Source: a virus. Taken from it: a DNA stretch of 64,000 bases. Position numbers and translations under genes: made by a program. Below are positions 10,597 through 35,139 of the stretch, in pieces (within the stretch, counting starts at the first letter, position 1; every line of letters begins with the position of its first letter). The stretch covers positions 51,996 to 115,995 of IMG/VR virus record IMGVR_UViG_3300025949_000001, one strand, 5' to 3'. Under the pieces are notes generated by a model. The model saw nothing but the letters and a program-made list of their open reading frames with translations. It was not told the origin of the DNA and searched no databases.

Positions 10597-11367
10597 CTAG
10601 TCCACCGGGACGCGGTACCTGAACTCGAAGCGGTCGCCCGCGCAGGCGAACACGGTCACCTCTACCGGACGGTCGTCCTGCGTGTAGAGGGTCCGCACCA
10701 GATCCACGACGGGAGTGCCCGGGTGCAGCCGCAGCGCCGCCGCCTCGTCGGGCGTCGGCATCCGGGCCACCAGATCCTCCACCGCATAGGCCAGTGGCAG
10801 TCCCAGTTCGCGCTTGAGGTAGGCGTGCACGCCGCCCGGCACCTCTGCGGCGGTGCGCAGCACAGGGTCCTCGGCGAACTCCTGCGGGAAGTAGCTCAGC
10901 GCCACCTGCGCCGGTTCCCCGTCGAGCGTCAGCATCACCCGGCGCAGCAGCAGCGCATCGCCTTCGCCGACCCCCAGCAGCTCGGCGACCTTCGTCGGCG
11001 CGGGTTCGAGGCGCGCCGTGGTGACCTCCTGGCCTCGCTCGAAGTCCTGCTTTTTCGCCTCGGCCTTCATCGGCGGCGTCCCCTCGGGTCGGCGCTGCGA
11101 GAGGTGTCGTGTCGATCCCTCGCGGCGCATTCGGCGCGGGTGCCGTACGAAGGTGCCTTTGCCCTGCCGGGTGACGACCAGTCCTTCGGACTCCAACTGG
11201 CCGATGGCCTGCCGCACGGTACCCAGGGCGCTGCCGGACTCTTCGATCAACTCGCCGAGGGTCGGGAGTTTGTCGCCGTCGCGCAACTCCCCGCGCGTGA
11301 TTCGCCTGCGCAGGCCGTTCGCGATCTGCGCATAGGCCGGCGTCGGGTCGCCCGGATTGACGGTCAC
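10597..11367 (-). CDS. GntR (HutC/KorSA-like) regulator with UTRA domain
   Basis: PAYAQIANGLRRRI..KLPT..TVRQAI..L..EGLV..QGKGTFV plus UTRA. Confidence 0.9.
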   Translation of the reverse strand: MTVNPGDPTPAYAQIANGLRRRITRGELRDGDKLPTLGELIEESGSALGTVRQAIGQLESEGLVVTRQGKGTFVRHPRRMRREGSTRHLSQRRPEGTPPMKAEAKKQDFERGQEVTTARLEPAPTKVAELLGVGEGDALLLRRVMLTLDGEPAQVALSYFPQEFAEDPVLRTAAEVPGGVHAYLKRELGLPLAYAVEDLVARMPTPDEAAALRLHPGTPVVDLVRTLYTQDDRPVEVTVFACAGDRFEFRYRVPVD

Positions 11368-18898: not shown

Positions 18899-19828
18899 GT
18901 GCCTACGGCAGAGAATAACCGCGCGCCCAAGGGCAAGCGAACCCGCCACGACGACGCGCCCACCCCCGACGCGCCCGGCGACGTCATGGCCGTCCTACGG
19001 CACGGCGGAACCGCCGCCCTCGCCTGCGCCGCAGCCAGCTCCGCCGTCTCCCTGTACTGGCTCGCGATCCTCGTCGGCTGGCCCGCCGCCCTCGCCTGGC
19101 TGCTGCCGGCGAGCCTCGACGTGTACGCCGGCACCAGCCTCTACGTCGGGTACCGCCTACCGGTGCGCCACCCGGCCGCAAGGACTGCGCGGCGCAACGC
19201 CCGCTTCGCGCTGTCCCTCTCAGTCGCCTGCAACGCGATCTATCACGCGCTCGTCCTGTTCGGCACTGCGTGGCCGACCTGGGTCCACGACTCGCTCCTC
19301 GTCGCGGTTTCAGCGCTCCCGCCGATCGTGGTGGAACGCCTGCTGCACCTGCGTTCCAAGGTCGACACTGGAACCCCCGCAGCGGGTTTCGGGACCGTTC
19401 CAGCGCCGCGCGCTGAAATCCCGCAGCAGGTTCCACGCGAACGTCCCGCAACTGCGGCCCTCCGTCCCACTGGAACCCCCGCAGCGGTACCGCCGCCAGT
19501 TGCGCGACCCCAGGTTCCGGTTCCAGCCGCGCCGGCGGCACAGGTCCCGCAACCCGCGACCGCGGGTGTGGACGGAACCGAACTACCGGCTCTCGGGGAG
19601 CGCCGCGACCTGGTCGCCGCACAGCTGGAGACCGTGAAGGAACTCGTGCGCGAGCACGGCCCGGAGGTCACCCTCTCCACGATCATGGCGCGCACCGGGT
19701 GCAGCAAGTCCACCGCAAGCCGCCGCCGGGCCGACGCCATCGACGCGTTGAAAACCGAGGCGCGAGCGCACCGGGAGCCCGGCGCAGAACCGGCCGACGA
19801 ACCCGAACGAGACGGCGAGGTCGCCTGA
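18899..19828 (+). CDS. DUF2637 / SpdA-like membrane protein with C-terminal HTH
   Basis: LYWLA..GW..LAWLLPASLD, SVACNAIYH, VSALPP; C-terminal IMARTGCSKSTASR; precedes TraB. Confidence 0.75.
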   Translation: MPTAENNRAPKGKRTRHDDAPTPDAPGDVMAVLRHGGTAALACAAASSAVSLYWLAILVGWPAALAWLLPASLDVYAGTSLYVGYRLPVRHPAARTARRNARFALSLSVACNAIYHALVLFGTAWPTWVHDSLLVAVSALPPIVVERLLHLRSKVDTGTPAAGFGTVPAPRAEIPQQVPRERPATAALRPTGTPAAVPPPVARPQVPVPAAPAAQVPQPATAGVDGTELPALGERRDLVAAQLETVKELVREHGPEVTLSTIMARTGCSKSTASRRRADAIDALKTEARAHREPGAEPADEPERDGEVA

Positions 19829-22152
19829 TGCGCGCCAAGCGACGCCACGCCACGAACGAGGAAAACGAGACGCAATCGGCATTCTCCGCCGAACCCGGCA
19901 CCGCTCTCGCGCTGCGTGGCGTGGCGCAGCCCGCGCTCGCCGCACACGCACCGCAGGTCAACCCGTACGCGCCGATCTACGGCACCGGGAACCTCGCCAC
20001 GAACGGCGGCTACCCGTCCGTGGCGTACAACCCCTACCCCGGCCTGCCCGAGCACGTCGCCGACCAGCTCACCCCGGGCCTCGCGGACCGCACCGGATGG
20101 GCCCTGTTCCAGTGGATGCAGGACCGCCACCTGCTGCCCGGAATCGGCGTGCTGGCCGGCGTCGCCTGCGGCTGGGGGGCTGCGGCGACCGAACCGATGC
20201 ACCCCTGGTTCGGGTCCGTCGCCCTCGGCATGGGCGCCCTGGGCGGCGTCACCTACGCCGGGATCCACGTCATCCGCTCGATCAACGGAGACGACGACGC
20301 GGAGCCCGTCCCGGTAGGAGTGCACATCATCGGTCTCGGCGGGATAGCGCTGACCGCGTTCGGCGTCGCCTGCATCACGGGACTGTCGTTCCTCTCCGCC
20401 GGTGTCACGCTGGTTCCACTGGCGGCCGGGTACTACGCCTGGTTCCAGAACCGCAACAGCCGCCTGGAAGGGCAGCGGCGTTTCATCGTGGACTACACCG
20501 CCGCGTCCACCCCGGCGCTGGTACCCATGCCTGGAACCGCGATGGCACCCCCCGCCGCGATCCCTGGAACCGTGGTGTCCCACGAAGAGGCGATGGTGCG
20601 CCGCGCCTTCGAAGGCATGAACATCGCGCTGCAGGACGTGTACGGGTTCGAGCGCATCGACGCCGACTCGTTCGCCCTCACCGTCGTGTTCGCCCCGGCC
20701 TCCAACGTCTCGCCCGAGTCGGTGATCGCCCGCAAGGACGTCCTGGCCAGTTCGCTCGGCGCCCGGCAGCTGATCGCGCTGACGACGCAGCGCGGGCACG
20801 AACTGCGCCTGACGATCCGCTACGGGGAGATCGACCCGCTGGCCGAGACCGTGCCCTTCCCCGGCCCGGTCGCCACCTCGATCACCGAGCCGATCCCGAT
20901 CGGGGTGTCCGCTGACGGATCGGCCTCCGAGATCACCCTGCTCGGCGTGCACACCCTCGTGGGCGGTGCGACGGGCGGCGGGAAATCCGTCATCGTCAAA
21001 ATTCTGATCACCTCGATCGCGGCGATGAGCGACGCGGTGCTGTGGCTTATCGATTTGAAGCCCGGCCGTATCGAGCTCGGTATTTTCGAACCCGTCGCCG
21101 ATCGTTCCGCACGTTCTTTGGCAGACGCCGCGATGATGTTCGAGGCGCTTATCGCCGCGGCGAAAGCCCGCGGGGAGTATCTCGCGTCGCTGCGCGATGA
21201 GACCGGGCAGCCGGTGGAGAAGTGGGACCCCACCGTCCACGGCCCGGTGATCGTCGTGGTCGTGGACGAGCTGGCGGAGTTGGTGCGCCAGGGCAAGAAG
21301 GTGCGCAAGGGCGAGTACGGCGACCGCATCATGGAAGCGATCAAGTGGGTGGTGTCGAACTTCGAGACCGCCGCGCAGGTCTACCGGGCGCTCGGCATCC
21401 AACTGGTGATCGCGACCCAGTCCCCGTCCTCGGCGATCACCTCGGGAGACGGCAAGGACGCGATCGACCAGTTCCAGAACCTGCTGTGCGTGCGCACCGC
21501 GAAGGTGTCGCAGACCAACATCGTGCTCGGGCAGGGCGCGCACGGCGACGGGTTCCGCGCCAACACCGACCTGTACGTCTCGGGCATGTACTACATGAAG
21601 ACCCCGCAGCTGTCGGTGCCGATCAAGCACAAGGCGTACTGGAGCGAGAACGAGGAGATCGTCGGCTACATCAACCAGTACGCCGACACCCGGCCGCCGC
21701 TGGACGAGCGCACCGGCGAGGCGGTGGCCGCGGTGCTCGGCACGATCGGCGCGACCCCCCGCACCGGGCCGGGCGGCGGGGGTAGCCGGACGGTGCCGAT
21801 CCGGGACGCGGCCGAGGCGGCGGCGCGCCCGAACCTGCGCAGCGTGCCGAGCGGCGACCGCGACGGCTACGACGGGCCGCGCTACCCGGACCGCCGGCCG
21901 GTCGAGCCCAAGAAGCAGCCGCTATGGAATCTGCTGGACTCGCCGCAATTCCGCGCTAGCGGCGCGACGGTCGGCGAACTTGCGGCGGCTGCCGCGCGGG
22001 CGGGCCACGACGCGTCGTCGCTGGCGTGGGTGCGCGACCGCTGCAAGGAGTGGCGCGAGGCCGACTATGTCGTGTTCGAGAAAGAAGGCCAGGACTACCG
22101 GTACTGGCGCGACGACTACACGCTGGCGGCTCAATTCAAGCGGGAGGCATGA
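19828..22152 (+). CDS. traB: TraB/TraSA-like FtsK-SpoIIIE DNA translocase
   Basis: N-terminal TM helices; Walker A GATGGGKS; IDLK; Walker B VVVVDELAEL; LVIATQ; C-terminal wHTH-like domain. Confidence 0.85.
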   Translation: MRAKRRHATNEENETQSAFSAEPGTALALRGVAQPALAAHAPQVNPYAPIYGTGNLATNGGYPSVAYNPYPGLPEHVADQLTPGLADRTGWALFQWMQDRHLLPGIGVLAGVACGWGAAATEPMHPWFGSVALGMGALGGVTYAGIHVIRSINGDDDAEPVPVGVHIIGLGGIALTAFGVACITGLSFLSAGVTLVPLAAGYYAWFQNRNSRLEGQRRFIVDYTAASTPALVPMPGTAMAPPAAIPGTVVSHEEAMVRRAFEGMNIALQDVYGFERIDADSFALTVVFAPASNVSPESVIARKDVLASSLGARQLIALTTQRGHELRLTIRYGEIDPLAETVPFPGPVATSITEPIPIGVSADGSASEITLLGVHTLVGGATGGGKSVIVKILITSIAAMSDAVLWLIDLKPGRIELGIFEPVADRSARSLADAAMMFEALIAAAKARGEYLASLRDETGQPVEKWDPTVHGPVIVVVVDELAELVRQGKKVRKGEYGDRIMEAIKWVVSNFETAAQVYRALGIQLVIATQSPSSAITSGDGKDAIDQFQNLLCVRTAKVSQTNIVLGQGAHGDGFRANTDLYVSGMYYMKTPQLSVPIKHKAYWSENEEIVGYINQYADTRPPLDERTGEAVAAVLGTIGATPRTGPGGGGSRTVPIRDAAEAAARPNLRSVPSGDRDGYDGPRYPDRRPVEPKKQPLWNLLDSPQFRASGATVGELAAAAARAGHDASSLAWVRDRCKEWREADYVVFEKEGQDYRYWRDDYTLAAQFKREA

Positions 22153-22153
22153 G

Positions 22154-22357
22154 ATGGAACCCGGGACGTTCGTCGTCGGCTGCACGGCTGAGGGCGAGCC
22201 GGTGACGGCCGAGACGTATCGCCTTCCCGATCGGGTGATCGGCGTCTGGATCGATGAACTGGCCGAGTCGGCCCGGACGCCGAGGCTGGACGCGCCGTCG
22301 GCCGCGGCGCTGTGGGCGGCGATGCGCGCGAGCGGGCCGACCGCCCGGGGCGCGTGA
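22154..22357 (+). CDS. small hypothetical protein
   Basis: GGGAGG RBS; coupled to next gene. Confidence 0.55.
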   Translation: MEPGTFVVGCTAEGEPVTAETYRLPDRVIGVWIDELAESARTPRLDAPSAAALWAAMRASGPTARGA

Positions 22358-23580
22358 TGGCCCGCCGCCAACGCCGCAGGGCCCGGCTGCGCGGCTGGAT
22401 GCCGAACCGGGTCGCCGCCCGATTCATCTCCGGCGGCAAGCACCAGACGTTCACCTCGATCGCGAAATCGCCGTTCCGCGTAAAGACGATCACGAACAAG
22501 AACAACCGGCGCCAGCAGTACCAGGCCGCGCGCCGACGCGAAGCCCGCGCCCTCGCAGCCGCCAAGCGCAAGGCAGTCCGGGATGCCGCCGCGCAGAAGA
22601 AGGCCTACGCGCGCCGCGCCGCCGAACTGAAGAAACTCGCGCCGAAGCCGCCGCGCAAGCCGCGCCCGAAGTCCCCGCCGATCGCCGTCGACCCGCGCAC
22701 CGGCCAGCCGATCACCTGGCCGCAGGCGCAGAAAGCGCTGCGGGAAGCACAGGAGCGCGCCGAACGCCTCGCCGCAGGGCTGCCCGGCGATGCGCCCGTC
22801 AAGGCGCCGCGCAAGACGGCGGCGAAGAAGACCGCTGCGGCGCGCCCTGCAAACCGCTCCCCGGCCGCGCGCCGCAGCGGGACCGCCCGGCCCAGGAAGC
22901 CCTCGAAGCCCCGCAAGGCGACCGCCATCCCGGCGCCGCCCACTTCGCCCGGCAAGACGCTCACCGGCGTGTACTGGGCGCTGACCTGCGCATGCCAAGG
23001 CACCGGCCGCATCGTCCAATACGCCGACGACGGCACCCCGAACGGCTCGATCTCCTGCCCCACGCACGGACGCAAAGCGCGCGGCGGACGCAAACTCACC
23101 TCCCGGCGCGCGATCAAAGAAGCCGGGCTGCCTGGCCTCGGCTCCTGGCTCGAGGGCAAGACGCGCCGCGGGCGGGGCAACCTCGACAAGAAACAGGAGC
23201 GCGCCCGCGACCGGGCCAAGGCGATACAGAGGCACGCCGGCCCGACCACGCAATGCGGCGCCTGCGACGAGGGCATCGTCAACCGCGGGTTGACCGACCA
23301 GCTGCGCGATGCGTACATCGGCGACCTGATCGCGAAACTCGAAGCGCAGGAAAAGCGGATCCCCCCGAGTCGGACACTGAACGCGGCGGCGCGCAAGGCG
23401 TACCCGTACGACCACTGCCGCCGGTGTGCAGGGCTCGGCCGCGCCCCGAAGGCGGCCGACGGCGACTGGTACGAGAGCGCGGGCCTGAAGGAGAAGCACC
23501 GGTTGACACCGCGCGAGAAAGCCGCCGGGCAGATCGACCCGGCGCTGCGTATCCGCAACTCCCGCACCCGGCGCGGCTGA
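22357..23580 (+). CDS. very basic K/R/A/P-rich protein with CxxC motifs
   Basis: KAPRKTAAKK-type repeats; CACQGTG, CPTH, CGAC, CRRCAGLG. Confidence 0.65.
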   Translation: MARRQRRRARLRGWMPNRVAARFISGGKHQTFTSIAKSPFRVKTITNKNNRRQQYQAARRREARALAAAKRKAVRDAAAQKKAYARRAAELKKLAPKPPRKPRPKSPPIAVDPRTGQPITWPQAQKALREAQERAERLAAGLPGDAPVKAPRKTAAKKTAAARPANRSPAARRSGTARPRKPSKPRKATAIPAPPTSPGKTLTGVYWALTCACQGTGRIVQYADDGTPNGSISCPTHGRKARGGRKLTSRRAIKEAGLPGLGSWLEGKTRRGRGNLDKKQERARDRAKAIQRHAGPTTQCGACDEGIVNRGLTDQLRDAYIGDLIAKLEAQEKRIPPSRTLNAAARKAYPYDHCRRCAGLGRAPKAADGDWYESAGLKEKHRLTPREKAAGQIDPALRIRNSRTRRG

Positions 23581-23660
23581 GCGCTCGGCGCTGCGGCACT
23601 GCTCGCGTTCGGGCGCTGACTGCGATACTGGCCGCAGCCACCCCGCGACCGAGGAGAACC

Positions 23661-23816
23661 GTGGACACGACCACCGCCGAGACCGCCACGCGCACCGAAC
23701 TGGTCGGCAACGTGCGCGACCTGCGACACGTCCCGCTGCGGCAGATCGCCGCGCAAGCCGCCGCGAGGGCAGGCAACACAGCCGGGCGCGCCGGGGAGTT
23801 CAACTCGTCAATCTGA
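23661..23816 (+). CDS. FxSxx-COOH-type RiPP precursor peptide (orphan)
   Basis: GAGGAG RBS; 51 aa; DLRHVPLRQI leader-like motif; C-terminus FNSSI. Confidence 0.7.
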   Translation: MDTTTAETATRTELVGNVRDLRHVPLRQIAAQAAARAGNTAGRAGEFNSSI

Positions 23817-24042
23817 CGGCGCGACGGGCAGCACCCGCGCGACCAAGCCCCGTTCATCCGGCGGGGCTCCCGCTTATGTGTGGCAGGCGTGCCTCACGAC
23901 CCCGTGTCCGGCCGCGTCCGATCCGTGTTGCGCGGCAGATTCCCACCCGCCACACTCGGCGCAGAAACAATCACGCCCGCCCCAATGACCAGTGAGGACG
24001 GGCTGCGCGTCCGTTCGAATGCTTGGCGGCTACGCTCACCAT

Positions 24043-24483
24043 ATGGACTTTCGCATCAGGGACTTCATTGCTGCGCGGCTGGACGAGCGGGAGACGGCGG
24101 CGAAGCGCGCCATCGAAGCGTCCGGCGGCGAGATCTGGCGCGCATCGGACGGCGGACTGTACCCCGAAGACAATCCCTCGCAGCACCCGGGGGCGTTCCT
24201 GGCGGACTACTACGGCTTCACCGACCCCGACTACGGCGATCACATCGCGCTTCATGATCCCACGTGGACGCTGCGGGACATCACGGCGAAGCGGCAGATC
24301 CTCGGCGCATACGATCGCGCTACCGCCCGCTTTGACGAAGCCCTCAGCAGTCCGCCCGACATCGACGCCGACGCTAGCGCCTTCAGCGCGCGGTCTCACA
24401 TGGATCTGGTGTTGCGGCTGCTGGCCGCGATCGATGCGGATCACTCGGACTTCAACCCGACATGGAAGCTGGACGTGTCATGA
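24043..24483 (+). CDS. DUF6221-like protein
   Basis: FIAARLDERE..HIALHDP..LRDITAKRQIL..LRLLA..DHSDFNPTW; TACGCT 6 nt upstream. Confidence 0.75.
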   Translation: MDFRIRDFIAARLDERETAAKRAIEASGGEIWRASDGGLYPEDNPSQHPGAFLADYYGFTDPDYGDHIALHDPTWTLRDITAKRQILGAYDRATARFDEALSSPPDIDADASAFSARSHMDLVLRLLAAIDADHSDFNPTWKLDVS

Positions 24484-25084: not shown

Positions 25085-25413
25085 TGGGCGGCGGAAATCG
25101 GTCTCGGCCGCCCCGTGTTCGGGCGAGTGCACCTATCGCATTACGGCTTGTGGGCCCAGTGTTGCTCGCTTTTATGTTGCTCGCGGTGCTGCGCTTCGGG
25201 CGATAAGCGGGATGCAGTCTGCATCCCGGATTTCATGCGACGGCGAATAGGTCAAGCCCCGGCTAGTCCGGGTACTGCGTCGCTTCCCATGGCTGCGGCT
25301 TCGGCCGGAACGAGATCACATCCTGGCCGTCGCCCGTGTGGGTCCATTCGGAGCGGGCACCTGCCCCGCTGAATCTCAGTAAGTCTCAGTCCTTCTAGGC
25401 GTATACTGGGCGA

Positions 25414-25983
25414 GTGAAGCTTTCGGAGTGGGCGCGCCGCGAAGGCGTGCACTACCAGACCGCGTGGGAGTGGGCGAAGAACGGGCGCATGCCCGTGCCC
25501 GCCTACCAGACCCCGTCCGGGACATGGATGGTGCGCACCGAACCCGACGCGCCCACCGGGCGCGTCGTCGCCTACGCCCGCGTCTCCAGCGCCGACCAGA
25601 AGCCCGATCTCGAGCGCCAGGCCGGGCGCGTGGTGACGGGCGCGACCGCCCGAGGTCTCGCCGTCGCCGAAGTCGTCACCGAGATCGGTTCCGGACTGAA
25701 CGGCGAGCGCCGCAAACTGCACCGGATCCTCGCCGACCCCACCGCCGCAGTGATCGTGGTCGAGCACCGCGACCGGCTCGCGCGCTTCGGTGTCGAGCAT
25801 CTCGATGCCGCCCTGCAAGCGAACGGCCGCCGCATCGTCGTCCTCGAACACGACGAGACCAGCGACGACCTCGTACGGGACGTGGCCGAGGTACTCACCT
25901 CGATGTGCGCCCGGCTGTACGGGCGCCGCTCCGCCAGGAACCGGGCCGCGCGCGGCATCGCCGCCGCGACGGGCGAGCGCTGA
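25414..25983 (+). CDS. tnpA: IS607 serine-recombinase transposase
   Basis: MKLSEWARREGVHYQTAW HTH; YARVSS..QKPDLERQ; EHRDRLARFG; TATACT 6 nt before start. Confidence 0.95.
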   Translation: MKLSEWARREGVHYQTAWEWAKNGRMPVPAYQTPSGTWMVRTEPDAPTGRVVAYARVSSADQKPDLERQAGRVVTGATARGLAVAEVVTEIGSGLNGERRKLHRILADPTAAVIVVEHRDRLARFGVEHLDAALQANGRRIVVLEHDETSDDLVRDVAEVLTSMCARLYGRRSARNRAARGIAAATGER

Positions 25984-25986
25984 TCC

Positions 25987-27366
25987 ATGGCCGTGCAGGC
26001 CTACCGGTTCGCCCTCGACCCGACGCCGGCCCAGGCGCGCAACCTCGCGCGGCATGCCGGCGCGGCGCGGGTCGCGTTCAACTGGGGACTCTCGGCGGTC
26101 AGGGCGAACTTGTCCCAGCGTGAGGCCGAACGCTTCTACGGCATCGACGGCGACGACCTTACCCCGGCGCTTGGCTGGTCGATGTATGCGCTGCGCAAGG
26201 CCTGGAACCAAGCCAAGGGCGACATAGCTCCATGGTGGTCGGAATGCTCGAAAGAGGCGTACGCCAGCGGGCTGGAGCAACTCGCCCGCGCGTTGAAGAA
26301 CTGGTCCGACTCCAAACGCGGCAAGCGCGCCGGCCGACCGGTCGGGTTCCCGCGGTTCAAGGCGAAGCGTCGCGCTGCGCCGTCGGTGAGATTCACTACC
26401 GGGACAATCCGCGTCGAAGCCGACCGCATGCACGTGACGCTGCCGGTGCTGGGCCGGATCAAGACGCACGAGTCCACGCGCAAATTGGAGCGCAGGGTCG
26501 CGAACGGCACCGCGCGGATCCTGTCCGCGACCGTGCGCCTTGAGGCGGCCCGCTGGTTCGTCGCGTTCACCGTCGAAATCCGGCGACCCGAGAAGTCCCC
26601 GCGCCGACCGGACGCGGTAGTCGGCGTCGACCTGGGAATCAAGACGCTGGCCGTCCTGTCCGAGGGCGAGCCGGTCGGGAACTCGCGGTACTACGATGCG
26701 GCGCGCCGGAAGTTGGCCCGCACCTCGCGCACCGTTTCGCGCCGCCAAGGACCGGACCGGCGCACCGGGCAGGCCCCTTCTAGCCGGTGGGTGCGGGCGA
26801 ACGCCGCGCGCAACAGAGTCCACCGCCGGGTTGGAAACCTGCGCCGCGACGGGATCCACAAACTCACCACCGCGCTGGCCCGCGAGTACGGCACGGTCGT
26901 GGTCGAGGACCTGAACGTCGCCGGGATGGTCCGCAACCGGCGGCTCGCACGCGCGATCTCCGACGCCGGGTTCGGCGAGATTCGCCGCCAGTTGGCGTAT
27001 AAGGCGGCGTGGAACGGCGGCCGGCTCGCCGTGGCGGACCGCTGGTTTCCCAGTTCCAAGACGTGCTCGGGCTGCGGGGCAGTGAAACCCAAACTGTCCC
27101 TGGCCGAGCGCACCTACACCTGCATCGAATGCGGACTGGTCTTGGATCGGGACCTGAACGCGGCGCTCAACCTCAAGCAGTTGGTTGAGCGCACCGTCGC
27201 CGGGAGTGGCCCGGAGACGTTAAACGGACGTGGAGCCGACCGTAAGACCAGCGTGCTGGCAGGTGGCCGTGAAGCGTCTACCCCGCACCCGGCTCTCGCC
27301 GGGGTAAGACGGGGACTCTTGCCGGGCAACCGGCAAGTCCTAGGCAGGCATTCGCTGAAACTCTAG
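25987..27366 (+). CDS. tnpB: IS607 TnpB RNA-guided endonuclease
   Basis: QAYRFALDPT; GVDLG, VEDL, DRDLNAA; CSGC/CIEC. Confidence 0.95.
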   Translation: MAVQAYRFALDPTPAQARNLARHAGAARVAFNWGLSAVRANLSQREAERFYGIDGDDLTPALGWSMYALRKAWNQAKGDIAPWWSECSKEAYASGLEQLARALKNWSDSKRGKRAGRPVGFPRFKAKRRAAPSVRFTTGTIRVEADRMHVTLPVLGRIKTHESTRKLERRVANGTARILSATVRLEAARWFVAFTVEIRRPEKSPRRPDAVVGVDLGIKTLAVLSEGEPVGNSRYYDAARRKLARTSRTVSRRQGPDRRTGQAPSSRWVRANAARNRVHRRVGNLRRDGIHKLTTALAREYGTVVVEDLNVAGMVRNRRLARAISDAGFGEIRRQLAYKAAWNGGRLAVADRWFPSSKTCSGCGAVKPKLSLAERTYTCIECGLVLDRDLNAALNLKQLVERTVAGSGPETLNGRGADRKTSVLAGGREASTPHPALAGVRRGLLPGNRQVLGRHSLKL

Positions 27367-27753
27367 GAACGGTCGCGCTCCCAGTCCTCGCCGAACACCA
27401 GCTCGTGGCTCGGCACGCCAAGCTGGCTCACTAGGAACAGCACCTGCGTCGGGGCCTCACGCGGCGTCTCGTCGGGCTCGACCTTGAACAGCGCGTCGAT
27501 CGGCCCTTCCGGGAAGGCCACCGAGCAGCGTGCGGGCGGCATGGTCGCCCCGTCGCGCAACCTGATGTCTACGGATCGCGAGAGGTTGGCGTCGGTCTGC
27601 TGCGCGAGCAAGCCGAGGGCTGTTTCCAGTGGCGAGCGCAGCACCATCTCGACGCGCGTGCTGTCGATCAACGCGGTGGGGGCCGGGCCAGGCGACCGTC
27701 AGGAGCATCTCGCGGGACGGGGTGAGGGGCATGGCTCAAGTGTCTCGCACGAC

Positions 27754-32710: not shown

Positions 32711-33179
32711 CGATCACACCCAGCGTCGCGACCGCGCCCACCAGAATCACCCACCCCGCGTTCAACCCGCTGCTACGCCCCTGGCTCGTATCCATCCGGG
32801 TCGTCAGCGCCGCGAGCTGAGTCGCGACCACCTCCACCCGATCCGACACCGCCTTGATCTGCAGCAGGCCTTCGACCTTCGTCATAAACGTCAGAACCTG
32901 ATCGTTCAACTGCCCCCGGAACTCGTTCACCGCCGCGAACCTCTCGCCCGACGCGACCTCCGCCTTCGCCACGGCCTTCTCCTGCGCCGCCAACGCCGCG
33001 GCGATCGCCTCCTTCTGCGCGGCGAACGCGGCGCTCACCGCGATCTGCTGGTCCGCGAAACGCTGCCCCGTCAGTTTCTCCGCCGCCGCCAGGGAGATCG
33101 CGGCGACGTTCGCGGCGTGCTGGATCGCGGCGTCGGTGTAGACGCGCAGGATGTCGATCTCGCGCTGCGGCTGAGGCAT
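32685..33179 (-). CDS. coiled-coil protein with C-terminal TM (lysis-region)
   Basis: GGGAG RBS; ERFAAVNEFRGQL; C-terminal hydrophobic helix. Confidence 0.7.
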   Translation of the reverse strand: MPQPQREIDILRVYTDAAIQHAANVAAISLAAAEKLTGQRFADQQIAVSAAFAAQKEAIAAALAAQEKAVAKAEVASGERFAAVNEFRGQLNDQVLTFMTKVEGLLQIKAVSDRVEVVATQLAALTTRMDTSQGRSSGLNAGWVILVGAVATLGVIVTLLLRLH

Positions 33180-33193
33180 GGCGCTCCCTGCGT

Positions 33194-33360
33194 CTAGGGC
33201 GTGCGGCGCGGCAGCGGCACGAGCTGCAGCGGCCACAGTGCGGAGCGCGGCGCGGGGGCGGGGGATGGTGCGCTGGGGCGGTTGTAGCCGTGGGCGTCGA
33301 GACGGCGGGCGGATTCACGAGTCCCCGCATGGCGGTGAGCGTGACGGGGGTGACGGAGCT
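33194..33360 (-). pseudogene. displaced original 3' end of the collagen-like gene
   Basis: ...PAPAPRSALWPLQLVPLPRRTP* aligns in register with ...PKPTPKRWVDLLFGVPFYRRGM*. Confidence 0.55.
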
Positions 33361-33441
33361 TACCTGTCTTGAGCAGCACGAACGGCACCTCGGCACGCGC
33401 CAACCGGATAGAATGGAGCCTACTGGACTGAAGGGGTCTGA

Positions 33442-33936
33442 ATGGCTGCTATAGGGGGCGCTTACACGCCCATCAGCACCGAACGGCGCTTCGCCCTCAA
33501 GGTGGACAAGACGGGCGAAGGTGGCTGTTGGAACTGGACAGGGAAGATCAATGAGGGCGGATACGGGATCTTCACGATCAAGCACCACACCTTGCGCGCC
33601 CATCGAATCGCCTGGGAGTGGCATCATGCACTGCCGATTCCCGAGGGGCAGATCATCCGCCACATGTGCGATAACAGGCGCTGCGTGAACCCGTCCCACC
33701 TGGTTGCCGGGACGTATTCCGACAACAACGCCGACGCCGTGCGTCGGCAGCGCGCCGCGACGCTGGTTGGCGAGAAGGTGCCGTCGGCCAAACTGACCGT
33801 AGACAAAGTGCAGTGGGCTCGCCAGCAGTTCGATTCTGGGACGATGAGCAAGACGGCAATCGCCCGTGAACTCGATGTCGCACCAACGACGATCGATGCC
33901 GTCGTGTTGCGCAAGAGTTGGAAGCACGTCAAATAA
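33442..33936 (+). CDS. HNH homing endonuclease
   Basis: [33 protein letters not shown]; C-terminal HTH; TAGAAT upstream. Confidence 0.92.
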
Positions 33937-33940
33937 CACG

Positions 33941-34798
33941 TCACATGCCTCGCCGATAGAACGGCACCCCGAACAGCAAGTCAACCCATCGTTTAGGAGT
34001 GGGCTTCGGGGTGCCGTTCTTCACCATTGGAGCCGACGCTGTCGCCGAGGATGCCGCAGGAACGCTCGGGGCAAGCGGGGAAGTCCCGGCCGATGGTATC
34101 GCTGATGACGTTAGTGTCTGCGATGGGGAAGCGGAGGCTGACGCAGATGCCGTGGATGTCGGCGGGCAGGTGTAATGAGGCGCCGGCGTCCCGTTGTCGG
34201 GTACGCACTCATACGTCACACCATTAACCTCGAAGGCCCAGCCCGCGGGGGGGCTGCCGGGGGCGCCATCTACACCTGGATTCCCCTGTTTTCCGTCTTG
34301 TCCATTTTCTCCCGGGCTACCGGGTGGACCGCTGGGCGCGGGGTGCGCGGCCATGTACGCGGCCACCGAAGCGTCGATCTGCGCCGCCGTCGCATCTCTG
34401 CCCGGCGCGGGCGGGTGCGCCGACAGATAACTCGCGACATCGGCCTCGACCTGCGCGGCGGAAACCCTCCCGGTTGGCGGGTTCGCGGCCAGGTACCCGT
34501 CGACCGCGAGCTGCACCTGCGCGTCCGACGGCCCCGGACCCCGAACACCCTGAGGGCCCGCGACACCCGAGACCACGGCTGCCGGCGGCGGCACGTTCGG
34601 CGTGGCGCCCAGCGAGATGATCTGCGCCCTGGCGGAAGCAACCGCCGCGGCGAGACCCTCCACCGCCGCGCCCTGCGCGTCGATCTTGCGGCCGTCCGCT
34701 TTCTGCCCCAGCAGCAGGAACACCACCAGGCCGAGGCCCAGCACGCCGCACAGCAGCCACGCGACGGGCCACCAGCGCGGCGAGAACCGGCCCTGCAT
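33941..34798 (-). CDS. membrane-anchored collagen-like protein (lysis cassette)
   Basis: N-terminal TM; GPPGSPGENGQDGKQGNPGVDGAPG; GVTYEC..YTC. Confidence 0.75.
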   Translation of the reverse strand: MQGRFSPRWWPVAWLLCGVLGLGLVVFLLLGQKADGRKIDAQGAAVEGLAAAVASARAQIISLGATPNVPPPAAVVSGVAGPQGVRGPGPSDAQVQLAVDGYLAANPPTGRVSAAQVEADVASYLSAHPPAPGRDATAAQIDASVAAYMAAHPAPSGPPGSPGENGQDGKQGNPGVDGAPGSPPAGWAFEVNGVTYECVPDNGTPAPHYTCPPTSTASASASASPSQTLTSSAIPSAGTSPLAPSVPAASSATASAPMVKNGTPKPTPKRWVDLLFGVPFYRRGM

Positions 34799-34800
34799 CG

Positions 34801-35139
34801 TCAATGACCTCCCTGATGGACGGCGGTGTACCAGGCGGCGGCGAGCACCGCCAGGATGCTCGCGATCCCCAGCACCCGCTGCCAGGTGATCTCGGAGCGC
34901 TGGCTGACGGACTTCTTCACGTCCGCGAGCGCCGCCATGACGATCTGGTGGCGTTCCTCGCAGTGCGCGTCCACCTCCGCGATGTCTTTCGCCAGGTGGC
35001 TGTTCTCCCGCGTCCACGAGTCGACGGACACGGTGGACTGGGCGAGGGTGTTCACGCGGGTGTCGATCGCGGACTGGTCTCTGCGCACGTCCTCGAATTT
35101 GCCGAGGATCTCGCGGTTGGTAAGGGGTTCGTCGGCCAT
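34801..35139 (-). CDS. coiled-coil plus C-terminal TM protein (holin-associated)
   Basis: GAAGGG RBS; single C-terminal TM. Confidence 0.65.
   Translation of the reverse strand: MADEPLTNREILGKFEDVRRDQSAIDTRVNTLAQSTVSVDSWTRENSHLAKDIAEVDAHCEERHQIVMAALADVKKSVSQRSEITWQRVLGIASILAVLAAAWYTAVHQGGH

What the first reader, a model, noticed from the sequence alone, without database searches (positions are those of the whole stretch)
23661..23816. Orphan FxSxx-COOH RiPP-type precursor on a phage
A 51-aa peptide with a good RBS, a DLxxVPLxxI leader-like motif and terminal FNSSI, matching actinobacterial FxSxx-COOH (cyclophane/triceptide) precursors. These normally sit beside the FxsB radical SAM enzyme and TIR/TPR-NTPase genes, none of which is in this window. 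Inference: the phage borrows the host maturase, or supplies a mimic/decoy that modulates a host Fxs conflict or signalling system.
Basis: partly seen in the sequence, partly recalled or inferred. Interest (0 to 1): 0.72.

Follow-up and report, generated by a model that had tools for sequence, protein, structure and literature searches.

The report
Maturase-less FxsA-like peptide gene on phages
A soil actinophage carries a small, self-contained gene for a peptide that resembles the FxSxx-COOH (FxsA) cyclophane-peptide precursors of actinobacteria but has no modifying enzyme of its own, so it probably works through, or against, the host's Fxs system.

Summary
Window 23661-23816 (+) is a 51-codon ORF with a GTG start, a GAGGAG ribosome-binding site and coding-type GC3. 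It has a DLRHVPLRQI motif and ends in FNSSI.

The window lies in a complete 116-kb tailed-phage genome. That genome has no radical SAM gene, no HExxH hydroxylase and no FxsT.

The curated FxsA models (TIGR04268, NF040585) do not match the peptide. That does not settle membership:
- The peptide belongs to a family of 12 peptides ending FNS[SA][IV].
- The family profile aligns with genuine FxsA peptides: hhalign score 37.3, against 8.4 +/- 2.0 for column shuffles.
- Across 401 actinomycete genomes, the profile's two best hits are FxsA peptides directly beside FxsB. One of them was checked further and is followed by FxsC and FxsT.

Three complete phage genomes from two unrelated lineages carry a member, and none has a maturase. 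A 476-bp cassette holding the gene is 96% identical in an otherwise unrelated element. The same allele appears in contigs from two metatranscriptome runs.

So the peptide is a divergent, phage-borne, orphan FxsA-type precursor. Its action on the host Fxs system, as surrogate or decoy, is inferred and not shown. The host is unknown.

The parts
23534..24009 (+). Mobile cassette: the last ~47 nt of the upstream gene, the conserved upstream region, the peptide ORF, the hairpins, and ~140 nt downstream.
   Evidence: This is the only part of the 5.7-kb metagenome contig L094 that matches the window well (96% over 477 nt). L094's flanks are unrelated: its FtsK-like gene is 33% aa identical over 147 aa. 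RNA-library contigs lie on 23534-23993, within this stretch.
23583..23660 (+). Conserved upstream non-coding region, promoter-like, with a GATACT hexamer at 23624-23629. The promoter is inferred.
   Evidence: It stays about 90% identical to phage G407 from 23583 onward, while the gene upstream of it is unalignable. The sigma-70 consensus scan found nothing here.
23651..23656 (+). Ribosome-binding site GAGGAG, 5 nt before the GTG start.
   Evidence: Read directly from the sequence. It is identical in L094 and G407.
23661..23816 (+). FxsA-like precursor peptide gene, 51 aa plus stop.
   Evidence: The family has 12 members. hhalign against FxsA.
23697..23747 (+). Leader-type motif ELVGNVRDLRHVPLRQI (residues 13-29).
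   Evidence: This is the block that aligns with the FxsA leader consensus (..lpDl....L..l) at 94.6% probability. BLASTP gives 9 of 14 identical residues to the FxsB-adjacent peptide of L112.
23799..23813 (+). Core-type C-terminus FNSSI (F-x-S-x-x-COOH), the expected site of a Phe-to-Ser C-beta cyclophane.
   Evidence: F, N and S are invariant in all 12 family members. G407 keeps FNSAV with the other serine codon family, AGC instead of TCG. The global profile alignment places it on the FxsA C-terminus.
23818..23868 (+). Two GC-rich hairpins after the stop codon, a terminator candidate. The second is a 9-bp stem at 23846-23868.
   Evidence: RNA fold -36.6 kcal/mol, z -1.9. G407 has a hairpin at the same place with a different loop and a longer stem. 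There is no T-run, so the terminator scan did not call it.
22312..23580 (+). Upstream neighbour: a basic 422-aa protein with no family match. Not part of the cassette except for its last codons.
23992..24483 (+). Downstream neighbour: a DUF6221 protein.
   Evidence: Pfam PF19730, 71.5 bits. The arrangement is syntenic in G407.

Best explanation
SHOWN. The ORF encodes a divergent member of the FxsA (FxSxx-COOH, triceptide-type) precursor superfamily. The subfamily was found on tailed actinophages wherever its context could be read. It keeps the two parts that matter in a RiPP precursor: a leader-type block (ELV..V.DLR.VPL.E[LI]) and the F-N-S-x-aliphatic C-terminus. It lacks about 10 residues of the central helix. 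The gene lies in a small cassette that recombines between unrelated phages. No phage that carries it encodes a radical SAM maturase.

The cassette appears to have its own upstream control region, ribosome-binding site and terminator-like hairpins. The promoter and terminator functions are inferred.

INFERRED. The only known partners for these two motifs are the host's FxsB cyclophane synthase and the downstream Fxs components: a TIR-like FxsC and a KGGVGR-ATPase/TPR protein, FxsT. The peptide therefore most likely works through the host Fxs system. My preferred mechanism is that the phage supplies its own copy of the peptide ligand. This surrogate or decoy is accepted by FxsB and/or the FxsT TPR sensor. 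It would keep the predicted NTPase-TIR conflict module from firing during infection or prophage induction, in the way phage-made antitoxin mimics work.

My odds: homology to FxsA about 0.85; a real expressed gene about 0.85; acts through host Fxs about 0.55; decoy or antidote specifically about 0.35.
For: Family and conservation:
- The full HMMER search gives nine further short peptides of 42-56 aa (the tenth listed hit is a 600-aa repeat protein); with this peptide and P0003 they make the 11-row alignment, with D20/L21, L26 and G-x-FNSS invariant or nearly so and the middle variable.

Link to FxsA:
- hhalign of the family against 23 FxsA gives probability 94.6% and score 37.3. The null from 150 column shuffles is 8.4 +/- 2.0 with a maximum of 14.9; the reversed alignment scores 7.6.
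- The global alignment places FNSSI on the FxsA C-terminus.
- Over 401 actinomycete genomes, the two best hits of the family profile (26.1 and 23.3 bits) are 57-aa peptides ending AAFNSSI. One lies immediately upstream of FxsB (TIGR04269, 580 bits), then FxsC and FxsSxx_TPR. The other lies beside an 86% identical FxsB.
- The protein atlas places three FxSxx-COOH clusters first.

Orphan status:
- No radical SAM gene and no FxsB in three complete phage genomes, G000, G406 and G407.
- In contrast, all seven FxsA copies found in four of the five bacterial genomes checked lie within about 6 kb of their own FxsB; the fifth genome (G085) has a second FxsB whose peptide was not sought.

Spread:
- G406 shares only about 5 proteins with G000 and has a different portal type, yet carries a member.
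- L094 shares only the 476-bp cassette, at 96%.
- The syntenic G407 copy has a diverged middle and end but still ends FNSAV, with a serine codon-family switch.

Expression hint:
- Contigs of 659 and 2,103 nt from two rhizosphere metatranscriptome runs cover 23534-23993 with the L094 allele.

Conflict-system context for Fxs: PMC7159879. Triceptide chemistry: PMC11499958.
Against: - The curated models TIGR04268 and NF040585 give no hit at E<=10 for any of the 11 aligned members (the G407 copy was not scanned).
- My own FxsA HMMs score the peptide only 8.6-14.7 bits. One clearly spurious ORF reached 16.3 bits in the same search.
- The phage peptides lack the central L..LRR.L helix of FxsA and have an extra residue before the Phe (G-E-F).
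- Whole-ORF dN/dS is not low: 0.83 for G000/G407 and 0.40 for G000/G406.
- The host is unknown, so it is not known whether it has an fxs locus. Only about 6-10% of the sampled actinomycete genomes have one.
- A defence role for Fxs is a prediction; PADLOC does not list it.
- RNA-library contigs can contain DNA and show neither strand nor transcript ends.
- Some viral contigs do carry their own FxsB-like maturase, so orphan status is not a rule for phages in general.
Confidence: 0.5

Rival explanations
1. Borrowed maturase for a product. The phage peptide is a true substrate of host FxsB. The matured cyclophane peptide serves the phage or lysogen directly, for example as a signal, a superinfection-exclusion factor or an antibiotic-like lysogenic-conversion product, and not as a decoy for FxsC/FxsT.
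For: Both the leader and the core motif are retained, as expected for a substrate. G000 has a tyrosine recombinase, so it may be temperate. The gene has a moron-like cassette layout. Some viral contigs carry a whole precursor plus FxsB-like pair, which shows that phages can make such products.
Against: The peptide has no signal peptide or export gene beside it. No protease or transporter lies in the cassette. No bioactivity is known for FxsA products. This reading needs an fxs+ host just as much as the best explanation does.
Confidence: 0.2
2. Descended from FxsA but now independent of Fxs. It would be a small intracellular phage protein, for example a regulator or a binder of another host target, that keeps ancestral motifs for a different reason.
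For: It has lost the central helix and fails the curated HMMs. In the G000 lineage (P0002-P0007 and G407) the N-terminal block DTT.AET..RTELVGN, upstream of the FxsA-like leader, is largely kept, which FxsA peptides do not show. The rest of the family, including G406, does not keep that block, though it keeps the ELV part. Most actinomycetes sampled have no fxs locus.
Against: The positions kept invariant are the ones conserved in FxsA: DL, L, F, S and the free C-terminus five residues after the Phe. The serine is kept across a codon-family switch.
Confidence: 0.2
3. Chance or convergent resemblance. The family is unrelated to FxsA, and the FxSxx ending and DL..VPL motif are coincidental.
For: There is no curated HMM hit. 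Single-HMM scores are marginal, and a spurious ORF scores as high. The peptides are short and low in complexity. The atlas score of 0.82 is lead level only.
Against: The hhalign score is about 14 sd above column shuffles. In about 2 Gb of actinomycete genomes, the two best hits of the family profile are FxsB-adjacent FxsA peptides. Two separate motifs match in the right order, with the second at the true C-terminus.
Confidence: 0.1

Closest known systems
FxsA / SjiA, the FxSxx-COOH cyclophane-containing RiPP precursors of actinobacteria (NCBIfam TIGR04268, NF040585; triceptide class, aromatic-to-C-beta crosslink on an aromatic-X-X motif, PMC11499958)
   Same: Similar size (42-56 aa against about 50-65). 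Leader block of the type L(V/P)DL..(V/L).L.EL. A C-terminus of F-(N/Q)-S-x-aliphatic-COOH. No signal peptide. High-GC actinomycete setting. Significant profile-profile alignment. The closest chromosomal relatives are the FxsB-adjacent peptides of L112 and L113.
   Different: Scores below every curated cut-off, with no hit at E<=10. Lacks about 10 residues of the central amphipathic helix. Has G-(E/A/S)-F where FxsA has (A/G/T)-F. In the G000 lineage a further N-terminal block is conserved. Never lies next to FxsB/FxsC/FxsT. Lies on phage genomes in all four contexts that could be read.
Peptide-processing modules of VMAP-ternary / TIR-AP-ATPase-TPR conflict systems (Kaur, Burroughs, Iyer, Aravind 2020, PMC7159879)
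   Same: This is the system in which FxSxx peptides, their radical SAM/SPASM enzyme and a TIR-NTPase-TPR effector are predicted to act together. It gives a rationale for a virus carrying the peptide.
   Different: Only the peptide is present here. The conflict role is itself a prediction, and PADLOC has no Fxs model.
Phage morons and phage-made mimics of labile host immunity components, for example antitoxin mimics (general knowledge, not tested here)
   Same: A small gene with its own control region and hairpin terminator candidate, inserted between unrelated genes and exchanged as a unit between divergent phages.
   Different: No known moron or anti-defence gene is a RiPP precursor look-alike. 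Promoter and terminator activity are inferred.
Viral contigs with a complete FxsB-like pair (IMGVR_UViG_3300036820_000003 and IMGVR_UViG_3300027795_000039)
   Same: These are viral records with FxsB-family-like radical SAM/SPASM genes (318 and 337 bits to TIGR04269). In the first, a 57-aa ORF just upstream ends FNSDI.
   Different: They carry the enzyme. That precursor has three F-x-x-x-I motifs and no similarity to the present leader. Their viral nature was not checked.

Membership tests
FxSxx-COOH precursor (TIGR04268 / NF040585 SjiA family) | Scores at or above the curated HMM cut-off (28 bits for TIGR04268, 75 bits for NF040585). | tested here: not met
   No hit at E<=10 for the peptide or any of the 11 aligned family members. 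A peptide adjacent to FxsB (L112) also misses both cut-offs, at 25.6 and 27.8 bits.
FxSxx-COOH precursor (TIGR04268 / NF040585 SjiA family) | The C-terminus is F-x-S-x-x followed by the stop codon. | tested here: met
   FNSSI here. FNSS[IV] in 11 members and FNSAV in G407.
FxSxx-COOH precursor (TIGR04268 / NF040585 SjiA family) | Leader region homologous to FxsA leaders. | tested here: met
   hhalign probability 94.6%, score 37.3, against a shuffle maximum of 14.9. The family profile's top two hits in 401 genomes are FxsB-adjacent FxsA peptides. BLASTP E 2e-5 against the L112 peptide.
FxSxx-COOH precursor (TIGR04268 / NF040585 SjiA family) | Encoded next to an FxsB radical SAM/SPASM maturase. 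| tested here: not met
   No FxsB and no radical SAM gene anywhere in G000, G406 or G407. The seven bacterial copies checked all lie near an FxsB.
FxSxx-COOH precursor (TIGR04268 / NF040585 SjiA family) | Locus also holds FxsC (TIR-like) and FxsT (ATPase/TPR). | tested here: not met
   No FxSxx_TPR and no aKG-HExxH in G000. The FxsC models were not searched separately in the phage.
FxSxx-COOH precursor (TIGR04268 / NF040585 SjiA family) | The peptide receives a Phe-to-Ser C-beta cyclophane crosslink. | not testable with these tools
   Needs co-expression with FxsB and mass spectrometry.
FxSxx-COOH precursor (TIGR04268 / NF040585 SjiA family) | Actinobacterial setting. | tested here: inconclusive
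   70% GC. Portal relatives are all in actinophages. A DUF6221 gene is present. IS607 TnpB relatives are mostly in filamentous actinomycetes. The host itself is not identified.
Phage moron (autonomous accessory cassette) | Inserted as a unit with its own control signals, and present or absent, or exchanged, independently of its flanks. | tested here: met
   A 476-bp block is 96% identical in L094 with unrelated flanks. The gene is also present in an unrelated phage, G406.
Phage moron (autonomous accessory cassette) | Own promoter and terminator. | tested here: inconclusive
   A conserved upstream region and a conserved hairpin are present, but the consensus scans found neither a promoter nor a terminator. 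RNA contigs cannot show transcript ends.

The most novel reading that the evidence does not exclude
Actinophages carry a look-alike of a host RiPP precursor. The host's own radical SAM maturase processes it, or is jammed by it. In this way the phage silences the Fxs TIR-NTPase-TPR conflict system. That would be the first viral counter-defence based on mimicry of a RiPP precursor. It would also be the first functional handle on what FxsA peptides do in their hosts.
Probability: 0.3. Interest if true: 0.9.

Novelty: new variant of a known kind. Interest (0 to 1): 0.68.

Why it matters
Fxs loci are widespread in large actinomycete genomes, and their chemistry (three-residue cyclophanes) is being worked out. 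Their biological role is unknown, and the link to TIR/STAND-type conflict modules is only a prediction.

A virus-borne, maturase-less and horizontally mobile copy of the precursor is the kind of natural experiment that points to a host-virus conflict role. It also makes that role testable with simple genetics: an fxs+ or fxs- host, and phage with or without the peptide.

For RiPP biology, it is an example of a precursor family that lives apart from its enzyme, in a different genome.

No FxsA-like peptide was found by tblastn in 50,697 GenBank phage records. Nothing on this was found in the paper library.

Tried and rejected
- Curated HMMs (NCBIfam, Pfam, PADLOC) on the peptide and its family gave nothing. 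PF27839 is not in the local Pfam copy.
- megablast of the neighbourhood against phages and plasmids gave nothing useful, only a 40-nt IS607 hit.
- The search for related loci with the 3-sequence alignment found nothing in viral or genome contigs. With the 11-sequence alignment it found nothing in viral contigs. A degenerate DNA pattern for GEFNSSI-stop gave 0 hits. P0009 and P0008 were not found in viral contigs.
The contexts of 8 of the 12 family members (contigs of 0.8-23 kb) could not be read.
- My own FxsA HMM without the L112-type sequences scored the peptide 8.6 bits, and it was not the top hit among 2,114 phage ORFs. With the L112 type added it scored 14.7 bits, E 0.016 in 12,870 ORF tails, but a spurious frame reached 16.3 bits. 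I treat single-HMM evidence as marginal.
- The sigma-70 promoter and intrinsic-terminator consensus scans found nothing.
- The IS607 TnpB search gave at most 71% identity, spread over Micromonosporaceae, Nocardiopsis, Nonomuraea, Lentzea and others, so it does not assign a host.
- The best portal relative among 401 genomes (37% identity) is in G210, which has an fxs locus. This is a single case and an anecdote only.
- Parts of the laid stretch without RNA-contig cover, and the small-share runs X2 and X5, are not interpreted.
- I rejected a read-through or frameshift extension of the upstream gene. The frame differs, the ORF has its own ribosome-binding site, and the upstream gene is replaced in G407 and L094 while the ORF stays.
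- I rejected the opposite-strand ORFs (22605-23756 and 23279-23857) because of their GC-frame pattern.
- G047 and G040, flagged as unpublished, appeared only as weak hits.

Full report
THE OBSERVATION

Window 23661-23816 on the + strand is an ORF with a GTG start, 51 sense codons and a TGA stop. A GAGGAG ribosome-binding site sits 5 nt upstream. GC by codon position is 0.69/0.59/0.88, the coding signature of this 70% GC genome. The overlapping frames and the opposite strand do not show that pattern. The product contains DLRHVPLRQI and ends in FNSSI.

The window is bases 51996-115995 of a 115,995-bp IMG/VR virus record with 127-bp terminal repeats, rated complete. The record has an SPP1-type portal, a weak capsid match below the Pfam cut-off, a Dit tail protein and a 993-aa gene beside Dit that has no family match. 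It also has a tyrosine recombinase outside the window. It is therefore a tailed, possibly temperate, actinophage. Its portal is at most 38% identical to those of cultured Streptomyces phages.

The neighbours of the ORF are:
- an FtsK/TraB-like gene (19699-22152);
- a basic 422-aa protein with no family match (22312-23580);
- a DUF6221 gene (23992-24483);
- an IS607 element (about 25352-27370).

IS IT AN FxsA?

The curated models say no. Neither TIGR04268, NF040585 nor Pfam gives a hit at E<=10 for this peptide or for any of the 11 aligned family members.

First, the family. A full HMMER search of 1.84 billion representative proteins listed ten hits, nine of them short peptides (42-56 aa) and one a 600-aa repeat protein that I count as a false positive. 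All the peptides are metagenomic. IMG/VR added a twelfth member in phage G407. Together with this peptide they make a family of 12. The consensus is ..ELV(S/G).V.DL(R/Q).(V/A)(P/T)L.E(L/I).. followed by a variable linker and then (A/S)G(E/A/S)FNSS(I/V)-COOH.

Second, genuine FxsA peptides for comparison. I collected 23 from 401 sampled actinomycete genomes using TIGR04268. Profile-profile alignment of the two sets gives probability 94.6% and score 37.3. In 150 column shuffles of the phage family the mean was 8.4, the sd 2.0 and the maximum 14.9. The reversed alignment scored 7.6. In global mode the leader blocks and the F-x-S-x-x ends align together, with a gap of about 10 residues where FxsA has its L..LRR.L helix.

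Third, the reverse search. The phage-family profile was run over the same 401 genomes, roughly 2 Gb in six frames. Its two best hits (26.1 and 23.3 bits) are 57-aa ORFs that contain SDVRDLRDVPL and end AAFNSSI.
- One lies immediately upstream of FxsB (TIGR04269, 580 bits, with a fused aKG-HExxH domain), followed by TIR-like FxsC and a KGGVGR-ATPase/FxSxx_TPR protein.
- The other lies beside an 86% identical FxsB.
- The first of these peptides scores only 25.6 bits on TIGR04268, against a cut-off of 28. The curated threshold therefore misses members that sit in a genuine fxs locus.

Fourth, supporting leads. BLASTP of the phage peptide against that peptide gives 9 of 14 identical residues over the leader, E 2e-5. 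The protein-atlas feature search puts three FxSxx-COOH clusters first, at 0.80-0.82, which is lead level.

Single-HMM evidence is weak, and I do not lean on it. The peptide scores 8.6-14.7 bits, and one spurious ORF reached 16.3 bits in the same search.

Taken together, I regard homology with FxsA as well supported, at about 0.85. Formal membership in the curated family is not met.

ORPHAN STATUS AND MOBILITY

G000 has no radical SAM gene of any kind, no FxsB, no aKG-HExxH and no FxSxx_TPR. Two further complete IMG/VR phage genomes carry family members, and they also lack radical SAM and FxsB:
- G407 (109.5 kb) is a syntenic relative of G000.
- G406 (111.2 kb) has a different portal type and shares only about five proteins with G000. 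Its copy sits just upstream of a five-tRNA array.

In contrast, all seven FxsA copies found in four of the five bacterial genomes checked lie within about 6 kb of their own FxsB. The fifth genome (G085) has a second FxsB whose peptide I did not look for.

The gene behaves as a cassette.
- The 5.7-kb metagenome contig L094 matches the window well only at 23534-24009, at 96% over 477 nt. Its FtsK-like gene is 33% identical over 147 aa, and the rest of L094 is unrelated apart from one 70% stretch.
- Between G000 and G407 the upstream gene is unalignable. From 23583 onward, the upstream non-coding region, the ribosome-binding site and the first roughly 21 codons are about 90% identical in DNA. The linker and the end have diverged.
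- Even so, the G407 peptide ends FNSAV, with serine encoded by AGC instead of TCG.
- A GC-rich hairpin follows the stop codon in both phages, with different loops.

Whole-ORF dN/dS is unremarkable, at 0.83 and 0.40. Constraint is concentrated on the two motifs and is not spread over the whole ORF.

EXPRESSION

Three rhizosphere metatranscriptome runs hold part of the region. In two of them, contigs of 659 and 2,103 nt cover 23534-23993. They carry the substitutions that distinguish L094 from the window. This is consistent with transcription of the cassette in a related element. Contigs cannot exclude contaminating DNA and give no strand or transcript ends.

MECHANISM

Shown:
- a conserved small gene related to FxsA;
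- phage-borne in all four contexts that could be read;
- mobile as a cassette;
- no maturase in any of the three complete phage genomes.

Established from the literature:
- FxsB-type enzymes form three-residue cyclophanes on aromatic-X-X motifs (PMC11499958; PMC9055067).
- FxSxx peptides, their radical SAM enzyme and TIR-AP-ATPase-TPR proteins are predicted to form a peptide-regulated conflict module (PMC7159879).

Inferred: the phage keeps exactly the leader-type and core-type motifs, so its peptide is most likely recognised by the host's FxsB and/or by the TPR sensor. I favour a surrogate or decoy role that keeps the NTPase-TIR effector silent.

The rivals are:
- a borrowed-maturase product that serves the phage or lysogen directly;
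- a function that is now independent of Fxs;
- mere convergence.

The host is not identified. Only 26 of 401 sampled actinomycete genomes (41 at the looser E<=0.001 threshold) have a TIGR04268 hit, so any Fxs-dependent role would hold only in a subset of hosts. The single genome with a fair portal relative, G210, does have an fxs locus, but that is one case.

COMPARISON AND NOVELTY

The closest known family is FxsA/SjiA. The phage peptides share its size, leader logic and C-terminus. They differ in four ways:
- they lose the central helix;
- they have an extra residue before the Phe;
- the G000 lineage has an added conserved N-terminal block;
- above all, they are separated from FxsB/C/T and reside on phages.

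No FxsA-like ORF was found by tblastn in 50,697 GenBank phage records. The paper library holds nothing on phage-borne FxsA.

Two roughly 130-kb IMG/VR contigs do encode FxsB-like maturases. One has an upstream 57-aa ORF ending FNSDI. Phages therefore touch this chemistry in more than one way.

I class the finding as a new variant of a known kind. It is interesting mainly because it makes the unknown biology of Fxs systems testable.

LIMITS

Noticed in passing
window 25352-27370: The IS607 element (serine-recombinase tnpA at 25414-25983 and tnpB at 25987-27366) is a clean insertion. In the syntenic phage G407, sequence matching window 25351 is directly followed by sequence matching 27371 (L121 13593/13594).
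   Followed up: partly
L133:4832-6104 (IMGVR_UViG_3300036820_000003) and L132:1388-2509 (IMGVR_UViG_3300027795_000039): Two roughly 130-kb viral contigs encode radical SAM/SPASM proteins whose best model is FxsB (318 and 337 bits, under the 370 cut-off; YhhB is next). In L133, a 57-aa ORF just upstream carries FNNAI, FQSKI and a terminal FNSDI. This looks like a phage-borne triceptide-type precursor and maturase pair. The viral nature of the contigs was not checked.
   Followed up: partly
L114:4020-4907 (phage G406): An array of five tRNA genes (Met, Val, Gln, Ile, Arg) starts about 90 nt after the G406 copy of the peptide gene.
   Followed up: no
L115:13418-17836 (phage G406): A 1,472-aa ORF combines a phage portal domain with a C-terminal 2'-5' RNA ligase-superfamily domain.
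   Followed up: no
window 19699-22152 against L121:6848-8758: The FtsK/TraB-like gene of G000 is only about 30% identical to the one at the same place in the otherwise 60-92% identical phage G407. That suggests the module was replaced. GntR/UTRA regulator genes of the AICE type lie nearby (10597-11367).
   Followed up: partly
G258, G266, G311, G085: Large actinomycete genomes often hold two or three separate FxsB genes, most with an FxsA found beside them. The FxsB genes fall into two score classes (about 580 bits against about 430-485 bits), consistent with diversifying paralogous systems.
   Followed up: no
G000 33040-34851 (outside the window): A 603-aa ORF has a tyrosine-recombinase (Phage_integrase) domain at 87.6 bits. 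The phage may be temperate, or may use the enzyme to resolve plasmid-prophage dimers.
   Followed up: no
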